The notes under the pieces were generated by a model. It was not told the DNA's origin. It did no database searches and saw nothing but the letters and a program-made list of their open reading frames with translations. 64,000 nucleotides of DNA. Source: Convolutriloba macropyga. Its lineage: Eukaryota. Location of the stretch: the NCBI RefSeq assembly GCF_964194025.1, contig NC_134482.1, positions 27,156,001 to 27,220,000 on the forward strand, given 5' to 3'. This document shows, piece by piece, positions 41,913-43,209 of this stretch (within the stretch, counting starts at the first letter, position 1; each line of letters opens with the position of its first letter). The position numbers and the translations under genes were made by a program.

Positions 41913-42586
41913 ATGGTTTTCATATTAGCTGCAAGTTCACTTCATCACGCCATAAAAACTGCGCCTCAAGTAACACAAAATCGTTACAAACGTAACGTTT
42001 ACGCATTATCGGGTTTAACGCTTTGAAAGTCCGAAAAACAGAGCAGTTCCAGTTGAGTCATTTCTTTCATGATAAGAAGCGCCTAGTTATATGGCATGAT
42101 GTATTGTACAATTCGCTTTCACGTCATCGAAGCAACAACAATAAGCCTTTAACGCCTTCGCAGCTTATTTCAGTGCTTGAAAACTATCAGGAGCGCATAG
42201 AAGCTATAGTGTATTGCCCCAGAGAGGGAACTCCTGATATCTACGATCAGCTCAAGCGTAGTACTCTAGTTGCCATCCATTTAGTGAAAGACATTGTGTC
42301 TAGACGTAAACAGAAAGATCCTAGTTTACTTAAAGAGTACAGAGCATTACACCAAAGGCCTGCGCTTGAGCTGAAAACACTCACTATAGTCTTAGCTCAT
42401 AAGAACAACCTCCGGTCCTTGATAACACGCTCCCGACCGAAGAAACTTTCAAAGCACCGTCGTAAAACGAGTCGCACCCGTCATGCGTTCGAGGAGGCGG
42501 AACTCACACAAGCCTTTGATAACCTGAATGTCACTTGGTCTTGCGCTGTTGTGGGAGTCTACCCGCTGACTGGCGGTGTGACTTAG
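41913..42586 (+). pseudogene. Extra ORF in the leader of element B; SGNH/GDSL-hydrolase-like fold inferred; one frameshift near 42023
   Basis: ATG at 41913 gives MVFILAASSLHHAIK...YALSGLTL*. The frame then shifts into the 187-codon ORF 42023-42586 (LVIWHDVLYNS...IEAIVYCPR...YRALH, basic tail). Motif spacing resembles SGNH blocks I, II, III and V. The ORF is seen directly; the fold is an inference. Confidence 0.6.
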
Positions 42587-43209
42587 TTAACTCACCAGTT
42601 ACGGGTTAGTTTGTGGTTGGTTCCCTCCGATAGCGCTTTACTAAACGTTTCGCTCTCCCCATTCTTCGAGTTTTTCACTACCGTCTGTTTTCCGCAGGTT
42701 ATCTGGTTTCATTTTTCCGTTTCCGTCCGTTTTGTTTCCGTGTCACCATGTTTCATTCAATCCCCCGTTTTTTTTTGTATGATGTAGTATGTTGAGTTTT
42801 GCTGTAGTAAAATTTCTTTCTGCTAGTATGCTGGTCTGTTGTTTAGTCTCGTTCCTTGCTAGGGTGTGACTTAAGTTCCTTCTGGAGTTACGGTTGGTTT
42901 GTTTCGTGATTTTGACCACACTTGTGTGCTAGCAATTTGTTGTAGCTTTATTAATCTTTGTAGTGTGCACTTTTGTTGTCTGGGTATGGTGGTTTGCAAG
43001 GGTGTGACTTAAGTTTGTTCTGGAGTTACGGCTAGTAAATTTCCTGACCTTTTCGACTTTTGGTTATACTACATCGTTGCTGTAAATTGTTTCATGTTTG
43101 ATGTTTTGATGCCGTTGATAAAACCCCATAATGTTTTGTGCTAGTTTACCTGGCAGTAGCTCCTCTTCTTCTTTCTAGGGTGTGACTTAAGTTTATTCTG
43201 GAATTACGG
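42573..43209 (+). repeat. Four ~33-nt conserved direct repeats (AGGGTGTGACTTAAGTTyntTCTGGArTTACGG) with non-identical spacers
   Basis: Copies at about 42573 (diverged), 42861, 42999 and 43177. Confidence 0.9.

What the first reader, a model, noticed from the sequence alone, without database searches (positions are those of the whole stretch)
42573..43209. Repeat-spacer array of conserved hairpins directly downstream of the accessory ORF
Seen: AGGGTGTGACTTAAGTT(cc/tg/ta)TTCTGGA(G/A)TTACGG at 42861, 42999 and 43177, plus a diverged copy GGTGTGACTTAGTTAACTCACCAGTTACGG at 42575. Start-to-start distances are about 288, 138 and 178 bp, and the T-rich spacers share little similarity. TGTGACT can pair with AGTTACG (using G-U pairs), and these stem arms are what the diverged copy keeps while its loop differs. 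Inference: conserved cores in diverged spacers suggest selection on an RNA stem-loop or a palindromic protein-binding site (packaging, dimerisation, processing or internal initiation). The layout is superficially CRISPR-like, but no cas genes are present.
Basis: partly seen in the sequence, partly recalled or inferred. Interest (0 to 1): 0.75.

Follow-up and report, generated by a model that had tools for sequence, protein, structure and literature searches.

The report
RNA hairpin array in retrotransposon leader
A jumping gene in an animal genome carries four same-sized RNA hairpins with a shared tip, right behind an extra gene for a small enzyme-like protein with a positively charged tail, which may be a protein-plus-RNA signal that steers the element's own genome.

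Summary
The repeats are real, but the 'spacers' are not free sequence. Each conserved core is the tip of a 110-115 nt unbranched RNA hairpin. Its two 45-nt flanks differ from copy to copy yet pair with their own partner far better than with other copies or shuffles. Arm length is fixed and folding is sense-strand specific. The array lies in the leader of a decayed BEL/Pao LTR retrotransposon, between gag and an accessory ORF. That ORF belongs to a large unannotated family (706 clusters) with an SGNH-hydrolase fold and an Arg/Lys-rich tail. It is not CRISPR-like. Best reading (0.35): multivalent RNA signals on the unspliced genome, read by the accessory protein in the manner of Rev/RRE or lambda-N/boxB. 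Close rivals: an elongated microRNA-precursor cluster (0.27), or a Gag- or host-read packaging, export or localisation signal (0.25). No RNA data and no full-length sister copies were available, so function is inferred. Ten literature searches found no BEL/Pao element with either feature.

The parts
40325..40697 (+). 5' LTR of the BEL/Pao element (TG...TA), preceded by target-site duplication ATAAT at 40320-40324
   Evidence: 94% identical to the 3' LTR; TSD
40702..40729 (+). Primer-binding-site-like TGGTGCCG, present twice
   Evidence: sequence directly after the LTR; tRNA partner not tested
41913..42538 (+). Accessory ORF, SGNH-hydrolase fold with C-terminal Arg/Lys-rich helix (212 aa in intact database copies). 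This copy is frameshifted near 42010-42025 and reads through the family's end point to 42586
   Evidence: tblastn of P0005; 146 clusters, one of 432 members; model pLDDT 96.5; fold matches
42535..42644 (+). Rod hairpin 1 (42 pairs, 11 G-U), core 42575-42604; its base overlaps the end of the accessory ORF
   Evidence: z -4.48, 0 of 200 shuffles
42821..42934 (+). Rod hairpin 2 (40 pairs, 12 G-U), core 42863-42893
   Evidence: z -3.49, 0 of 200 shuffles
42959..43073 (+). Rod hairpin 3 (41 pairs, 12 G-U), core 43001-43031
   Evidence: z -4.36 for 42975-43060, 0 of 200 shuffles
43138..43251 (+). Rod hairpin 4 (37 pairs when the shared tip helix is enforced), core 43179-43209; tip disturbed in this copy
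   Evidence: free fold only z -0.98; flank duplex 0 of 1000 shuffles; constrained fold
43303..43610 (+). Second, GC/pyrimidine-rich tandem array of about 54-nt units with small GC hairpins and GCGCGC-type palindromes; candidate packaging or dimerisation region
   Evidence: (D1)
43753..43785 (+). Candidate 3' splice site (branch-like CTAAT, pyrimidine tract, AG) ending 3 nt before the gag ATG at 43789
   Evidence: ranked 2nd by pyrimidine count in the leader scan, and the top-ranked site with a branch-like motif; not shown to be used
43789..50352 (+). Decayed gag-pol (DUF1759, aspartyl protease, RT region, Peptidase_A17, integrase zinc finger, DUF5641), with stops and frameshifts
50353..50732 (+). 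3' LTR, followed by TSD ATAAT at 50733-50737

Best explanation
The array is four cis-acting RNA rods on the sense, genome-length transcript of a BEL/Pao retrotransposon. Each has a constant tip (7-8 bp helix, GG/G internal loop, short closing helix, 6-nt loop), about 30 nt of sequence-variable but paired arms, and a basal helix at fixed distance. Shown by computation: structure, geometry, strand, and position between the accessory ORF and gag. Inferred: the tip is a protein-binding site repeated for avidity. The likeliest reader is the element's own SGNH-fold protein, through its Arg/Lys-rich C-terminal helix. Also inferred: gag-pol mRNA is spliced at the acceptor before the gag ATG, so only unspliced genomic RNA carries the rods, and the bound protein marks that RNA for export, trafficking or packaging, as Rev/RRE or lambda-N/boxB do.
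For: Own-flank duplexes -41.3, -26.7, -31.2, -27.9 kcal/mol against -7.8 to -21.5 for the 12 cross-copy pairs; 0 of 1000 shuffles for each of 4. All 7 of 134 leader positions with z < -3 sit on the four cores, against 7 of 300 random window positions. RNAalifold: 9 of 25 pairs have a double change. Of 13 listed rod positions where most family contigs differ from this decayed copy, only 1 is in a Watson-Crick pair here (51% expected, P = 0.0013). By hand, the family letter pairs better at 7 of the 13. Sequence constraint is in the tip including the loop (77-94%), not the arms (39-65%). Contigs from three other organisms keep the tip and change flank right beside it (table 7). The adjacent ORF has a basic tail in 80 of 95 aligned members, median pI 10.4, and its stop lies at the base of rod 1. 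An export-signal-like spacing follows the basic tail in 21 of 28 close members. Precedent: ZfL2-1 ORF1p is an SGNH esterase with an arginine-rich motif, proposed to target structured RNA like lambda-N (PMC3905857, passages). The two other BEL/Pao elements in the window lack both the ORF and such an array.
Against: No binding, splicing or expression data. The basic tail may be only a nuclear localisation signal. The protein keeps S, G, N and H in 72 of 95 members, so it may be a working esterase acting on membranes or host substrates. The export-signal-like spacing is in only 4 of 79 tails of the wider family. A fixed 50-nt arm length is not explained by tip binding and fits a processing ruler better. 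At 2 of the 13 family-difference positions the family letter breaks a pair in this copy's register, and at 1 it weakens one. Rods of this size occur in 49 of 6388 windows of the 64 kb, so one rod alone is not rare. Co-occurrence of ORF and array could not be checked in any distant family, and the two negative elements are a sample of two.
Confidence: 0.35

Rival explanations
1. The rods are a cluster of elongated microRNA-type precursors made by the element, for example from an intron, to regulate host or defence genes. Either the tip-proximal 3' arm gives four RNAs with one shared seed, or the variable middle is the guide and the constant tip is the excised part.
For: Four unbranched rods of near-equal length with U-rich linkers of 176, 24 and 64 nt. 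Fixed distance from basal motif to core: -39, -39, -40, -37. All four 3' arms share the first ~9 nt, followed by a central mismatch. [quoted passage not shown] A retrovirus, BLV, encodes a miRNA cluster (PMC3534370, passages).
Against: The loop is as conserved as the stem in copies 2-4, the reverse of the usual miRNA pattern (recalled). Rods 1 and 3 lack the large internal loop. The middles of rods 2 and 4 pair poorly for a miRNA duplex. Middles differ between subfamily contigs. Drosha cleavage would cut the genome, which BLV avoids through Pol III hairpins; three T4 runs lie inside rod 3 and one in rod 2. No Rfam match. No arm had a match beyond shuffles in the window.
Confidence: 0.27
2. The rods are packaging, dimerisation, export or localisation signals read by Gag zinc knuckles or by a host factor (NXF1-type export factor, dsRNA-binding transport protein), independent of the accessory protein.
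For: Position between primer site and gag is the usual place of packaging signals (established knowledge). Unpaired guanosines in the GG/G loop suit zinc knuckles (recalled). Each core holds an 8-nt palindrome, ACTTAAGT in copies 2-4 and a different one, AGTTAACT, in copy 1. Simple retroviruses use structured cis elements with host NXF1 (PMC3856414, passages).
Against: The palindromes are partly buried in the stem, and self-dimers gain only 2 kcal/mol for copies 2 and 3. The GC-rich 54-nt array next to gag is an alternative packaging candidate. The other two BEL/Pao elements in the window have no such array.
Confidence: 0.25
3. The cores act as DNA: a multimerised enhancer or insulator site, like the Su(Hw) array in the gypsy 5' UTR (recalled).
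For: Repeated conserved cores with palindromes in AT-rich spacers in a retrotransposon leader.
Against: Does not explain copy-specific complementarity of the flanks, G-U-rich sense-only folding or double changes.
Confidence: 0.05
4. Neutral: decayed tandem duplications of one fold-back unit, with cores homogenised by template switching.
For: Units are paralogous at base and tip. Joints between cores occur in contigs (table 5), so recombination among cores happens.
Against: Neutral decay would lose pairing as arms diverge to 39-65% identity, yet own-flank pairing is kept in all four. Private differences avoid Watson-Crick pairs.
Confidence: 0.05
5. CRISPR-like memory array with acquired spacers.
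For: Constant repeats with unlike intervening sequence.
Against: Flanks on both sides of each repeat are mutually complementary. Spacers are 107-258 nt and related between subfamilies (read by eye). No arm matches the window beyond shuffles. No Cas family among 18 frames scanned.
Confidence: 0.02

Closest known systems
Belpaoviridae (BEL/Pao LTR retrotransposons)
   Same: LTRs, 5-bp target duplication, DUF1759 gag, protease, Peptidase_A17, integrase, DUF5641
   Different: 3.1-kb leader with an SGNH-fold ORF upstream of gag and a rod-hairpin array; neither found described in searches
GDSL/SGNH ORF3 of bdelloid Vesta LTR retrotransposons (PMC5408684, passages)
   Same: SGNH accessory gene in an LTR element, catalytic residues kept
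   Different: There it is ORF3, in rotifer retrovirus-like lineages, about 1.3 kb; 0 occurrences of 'hairpin' or 'tandem repeat' in that paper. Here it is a 212-aa ORF upstream of gag in a BEL/Pao element
ZfL2-1 / CR1 / RTEX esterase ORF1p (PMC3905857, passages)
   Same: SGNH fold plus arginine-rich motif, high pI, upstream of the replication gene
   Different: Non-LTR element, ORF1p replaces Gag, motif is N-terminal to the esterase with a coiled coil, full D-H-S triad. Here Gag is present, the basic motif is C-terminal, and the Asp before the His is not conserved
Rev/RRE, Rex/RxRE, Rem and CTE/NXF1 export systems (PMC3856414, passages)
   Same: Proposed logic: structured cis element on unspliced RNA plus a small basic trans factor
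   Different: Unrelated fold, four separate rods instead of one branched element, no function shown
Elongated invertebrate miRNA hairpins and the BLV miRNA cluster (PMC12553114, PMC3534370)
   Same: Clustered long rods with uniform geometry
   Different: Conservation peaks in the tip and loop; no small-RNA evidence; no Rfam match
MDG1-group sORF1/sORF2 upstream of gag (bioRxiv 10.1101/2025.03.14.642691, passages)
   Same: Accessory ORFs upstream of gag in an LTR element
   Different: Those are 70-110 aa nuclear and transmembrane proteins in Metaviridae; only 6 of 95 members here have a hydrophobic 19-residue window

Membership tests
Belpaoviridae | LTR pair with short target-site duplication | tested here: met
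   94% identical LTRs, ATAAT on both sides
Belpaoviridae | gag-PR-RT-RH-IN order with DUF1759, Peptidase_A17, DUF5641 | tested here: met
   the short RT fragment of this copy gave no Pfam hit, relatives carry PF00078
SGNH hydrolase superfamily (accessory ORF) | SGNH alpha/beta fold | tested here: met
   49 of the 50 listed VIA matches are 135-170 residue alignments at 3.1-4.5 A, mostly GDSL/SGNH esterases; best Z 10.7, rmsd 3.4, 139 aligned (OatA); Oskar OSK Z 8.2. Foldseek best E 4.9e-3 only
SGNH hydrolase superfamily (accessory ORF) | Conserved S, G, N, H of blocks I, II, III, V | tested here: met
   all four in 72 of 95 members; assignment is by motif position, not by measured geometry
SGNH hydrolase superfamily (accessory ORF) | Acid of the DxxH motif | tested here: not met
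   position 148 is R/K/Q/S/L
SGNH hydrolase superfamily (accessory ORF) | Esterase activity | not testable with these tools
   needs an assay
Rev-like export system | Arginine-rich motif in the trans factor | tested here: met
   6 or more K/R in 12 residues near the C-terminus in 80 of 95
Rev-like export system | Leucine-rich export signal | tested here: inconclusive
   spacing present in 21 of 28 close, non-independent members (2.4 expected), but 4 of 79 in the wider family (1.2 expected)
Rev-like export system | Response element lies in an intron of unspliced RNA | tested here: inconclusive
   acceptor-like site before gag and donor-like sites at 41273 and 41351; use not shown
Rev-like export system | Specific protein-RNA binding and export activity | not testable with these tools
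   needs binding and reporter assays
Canonical pri-miRNA cluster | Stem of about 30-35 bp with loop under 15 nt | tested here: inconclusive
   37-42 pairs over 110-115 nt, longer than canonical but within the invertebrate range
Canonical pri-miRNA cluster | Arms more conserved than loop (pattern recalled) | tested here: not met
   core with loop 77-94%, middle arms 39-65%
Canonical pri-miRNA cluster | 21-23 nt mature/star reads | not testable with these tools
   needs small-RNA sequencing
CRISPR array | Independent spacers of near-constant short length | tested here: not met
   107-258 nt, flanks complementary across each repeat
CRISPR array | Spacers match foreign DNA | tested here: inconclusive
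   none beyond shuffles in the 64-kb window; host genome not held
Known Rfam RNA families (including CTE, ribozymes, miRNAs) | Covariance-model match | tested here: not met
   2 matches at E 2.9 and 5.5 in 40300-44000, neither on the array

The most novel reading that the evidence does not exclude
A clade of BEL/Pao retrotransposons has evolved its own trans-acting RNA-control cassette: a captured SGNH hydrolase with an arginine-rich tail that reads a natural array of fixed-length RNA rods. Alternatively the rods are a programmable small-RNA scaffold with constant base and tip and variable guide duplexes. Either would be a retrovirus-grade accessory system not found described for LTR retrotransposons in the searches run here.
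Probability: 0.4. Interest if true: 0.85.

Novelty: new variant of a known kind. Interest (0 to 1): 0.66.

Why it matters
Accessory protein-RNA systems such as Rev/RRE are treated as marks of complex retroviruses. The idea that retroelement SGNH esterases recognise structured RNA through basic peptides was proposed in 2013 (PMC3905857) without a candidate target. Here the protein and a fourfold natural candidate target sit side by side in a high-copy family, so the question can be tested directly. If the rods are small-RNA precursors instead, the element would carry its own microRNA-type cluster. The ORF also defines a large unannotated SGNH family (706 clusters at 50% identity) that Pfam misses.

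Tried and rejected
No own genome is held. The core pattern found 0 matches in metagenome contigs. Pol and accessory-protein scans of viral contigs and of genome contigs with the accessory alignment confirmed no relative. Pol scans gave 1 metagenome contig and 5 distant contigs, none with the SGNH ORF. So no full-length sister leader was obtained and no true covariation test across insertions could be run. No RNA holder was listed. The homodimer prediction gave no verdict. A search for longer, fused forms of the accessory protein found none among 8000 candidates of 498-2000 aa, which is weak evidence. Sequence searches of PDB and Pfam did not identify the protein. Atlas hints at GDSL were under 0.9. 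The count of structure pairs on a short ungapped alignment used a bracket string off register for copy 1 and one pair; it did not beat its shuffle control (141 of 500) and is not used. Sliding 70-nt folds reached z below -3 on the sense strand at only 1 of 80 positions, because the rods are longer than the window. Depth is 2-8 times higher in bins holding cores 3 and 4 in runs X1, X5 and X8 but not X7; the tool warns that depth is no copy number, so this is only a hint. A 14-nt match of rod 4's 3' arm to a neighbouring element's LTR was reached by 2 of 40 shuffles among 8 arms tested and is set aside. Four look-ups of earlier findings returned nothing. No tRNA genes. The host was not identified; one paper search used a recalled guess at the host group and found nothing relevant.

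Full report
Observation. Three match the 15-mer exactly and one with three mismatches; the other two loose hits in the window are chance level. Cores are 90-94% identical among copies 2-4 and 77% to copy 1. The spacers do not align with each other: the best of 10 pairs was reached by 14 of 300 shuffles.

Context. The array lies in a decayed BEL/Pao LTR retrotransposon spanning 40325-50732. Its LTRs are 94% identical and a 5-bp duplication ATAAT flanks both ends. Downstream frames carry DUF1759, an aspartyl protease, Peptidase_A17, an integrase zinc finger and DUF5641. The leader between LTR and gag ATG (43789) is 3.1 kb and holds the accessory ORF, the array and a second 54-nt tandem array. 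The stretch 41850-43850 is covered in all 30 bins by contigs of two runs and in 28 of 30 by two more, from four organisms, so it is a regular part of a multi-copy family. The accessory gene travels with this pol lineage: 7 of 29 pol hits at 80% identity or more share a contig length with an accessory hit, against 0 of 91 more distant ones (P = 3e-5; equal length is a proxy for the same contig).

The spacers are stem arms. Folding 86-141 nt around each core gave z = -4.48, -3.49, -4.36 and -0.98. Rods span 110, 114, 115 and 114 nt with 42, 40, 41 and 37 pairs; the fourth needed its tip helix enforced. The decisive test leaves the cores out. The 45 nt upstream of each core pair with that core's own downstream 45 nt at -41.3, -26.7, -31.2 and -27.9 kcal/mol. 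The 12 cross-copy combinations give -7.8 to -21.5, and 0 of 1000 shuffles reach the native value in each case. With 25-nt flanks only copies 1 and 3 pass, and with 12-nt flanks only copy 1, so much of the signal in copies 2 and 4 is in the basal helix. In a scan of 134 leader positions, the 7 with z below -3 all fall on the four cores; 7 of 300 random window positions do so. Rods this long are not rare singly (49 of 6388 windows); the point is that they centre on the repeats. Each uses 9-12 G-U pairs and folds 16-31 kcal/mol better on the sense strand, which points to RNA. Antisense flank duplexes were weaker, though copies 2 and 4 still beat most shuffles (2 and 0 of 500). RNAalifold on the four rods finds 25 shared pairs, 9 with a double change, including the two pairs closing copy 1's loop; four paralogs are too few for a formal covariation test.

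Fixed geometry. A basal UAG lies 39, 39, 40 and 37 nt before the cores (copy 1 reads UGG there in this insertion) and its CUA partner 36-38 nt after them. Tip identity is 77-94%, middle arms 39-65%, basal helices 25-83%. By hand count on the loose ends and joints, 6 of 7 upstream variants beside a core keep the basal motif in the -37 or -39 register with different middles; three of these show only part of the motif. Of 9 downstream variants, 5 keep CUA at +36 or +38, 1 does not and 3 are too short. Several of these are the same subfamily seen in different runs, and the tool showed only a small part of its rows.

Family against this copy. One search listed its 40 best-supported differences (409 more not shown). 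Thirteen majority differences fall inside the rods. Only 1 is in a Watson-Crick pair of this copy, where 51% of rod positions are (P = 0.0013). Judged by hand against partner bases, the family letter pairs better at 7, is neutral at 3, weakens 1 and breaks 2 in this copy's register. This is what decay of a selected structure after insertion would give.

The accessory protein. The ORF starts at 41913; this copy is frameshifted near 42010-42025 and reads through the family's end point. Relatives number 146 clusters at 90% identity, one with 432 members, and 706 at 50% identity; none of those shown with a name column is named, and Pfam misses them. A model from 95 sequences has pLDDT 96.5 and matches SGNH/GDSL hydrolases: Z 10.7, rmsd 3.4 A over 139 residues to OatA, Z 8.2 to the Oskar OSK domain. 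Foldseek agrees but only at E 4.9e-3. S, G, N and H are kept together in 72 of 95 members, the Asp of DxxH is not. A K/R-rich stretch ends the protein in 80 of 95. An export-signal-like spacing follows it in 21 of 28 close members but 4 of 79 distant tails. Whether distant members also sit in BEL/Pao elements could not be seen.

Splicing clue. A branch-like CTAAT, a pyrimidine tract and AG end 3 nt before the gag ATG; donor-like sites lie at 41273 and 41351. Thirteen ATGs lie between the accessory stop region and the gag ATG, so scanning through the array is unlikely. If this acceptor is used, ORF and rods are present only on unspliced RNA. This is inference.

Mechanism. Constraint on tip and loop sequence, repeated four times next to a gene for a basic-tailed protein, best fits a protein-read signal on genomic RNA (0.35 with the accessory protein as reader, 0.25 with Gag or a host factor). 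Schneider et al. proposed that retroelement esterases bind structured RNA through arginine-rich peptides (PMC3905857, passages); Rev-like and CTE systems give the logic (PMC3856414, passages). The fixed arm length fits a processing ruler, and invertebrates do process elongated miRNA hairpins (PMC12553114, passages and section 14), so a small-RNA cluster gets 0.27. Against it are the conserved loop, poor middle pairing in rods 2 and 4, and the cost of cutting the genome (PMC3534370, passages). DNA enhancer, neutral decay and CRISPR-like memory do not explain copy-specific flank pairing.

Novelty. GDSL/SGNH accessory genes are known as ORF3 in bdelloid LTR elements and as ORF1 in non-LTR elements (PMC5408684 and PMC6431247, passages). 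ORFs upstream of gag are known in MDG1 elements (bioRxiv 2025.03.14.642691, passages). Ten searches of the open library (listings only, apart from the papers named) showed no BEL/Pao element with an SGNH gene or a rod array. Subscription papers and repeat databases were not searchable. Verdict: a real, structured, previously undescribed variant; function inferred; interest 0.66.

Noticed in passing
window 43303-43610: Second array of about six 54-nt GC/pyrimidine-rich units with small hairpins and GCGCGC-type palindromes just before gag; a candidate dimerisation or packaging region.
   Followed up: partly
window 43753-43789: Acceptor-like splice site directly before the gag ATG; gag-pol may be made from a spliced or trans-spliced RNA.
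   Followed up: partly
window 27000-32300 and 52600-55400, minus strand: Two more decayed BEL/Pao elements of other families; the first has a 2.3-kb internal duplication. Neither has the SGNH ORF.
   Followed up: partly
window 34995-38905 and 58155-60956: LTR-like units repeated head to tail (period about 1292 and about 1580 nt) beside the two minus-strand elements.
   Followed up: no
window 40697-40729: Both LTRs end in TA instead of the usual CA (usual end recalled), and the primer-site-like TGGTGCCG occurs twice within 30 nt.
   Followed up: no
window 40960-40987: A (GT)n microsatellite inside the element's leader.
   Followed up: no
window 19350-21125: Nested inverted repeats (141-nt arms at 20778-21123) and an 88-nt tandem family at 20202-20652, possibly a fold-back element.
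   Followed up: no
L002-L006: BEL/Pao pol sequences on short contigs of five bacterial metagenome-assembled genomes, probably animal DNA binned with them.
   Followed up: no
P0005 residues 202-211: The only export-signal-like hydrophobic spacing in the protein follows the basic tail; limited to the close subfamily.
   Followed up: partly
window 43226-43239 and 52261-52274: 14-nt identity between the 3' arm of rod 4 and the LTR of a neighbouring element; not beyond chance once 8 arms are counted.
   Followed up: yes
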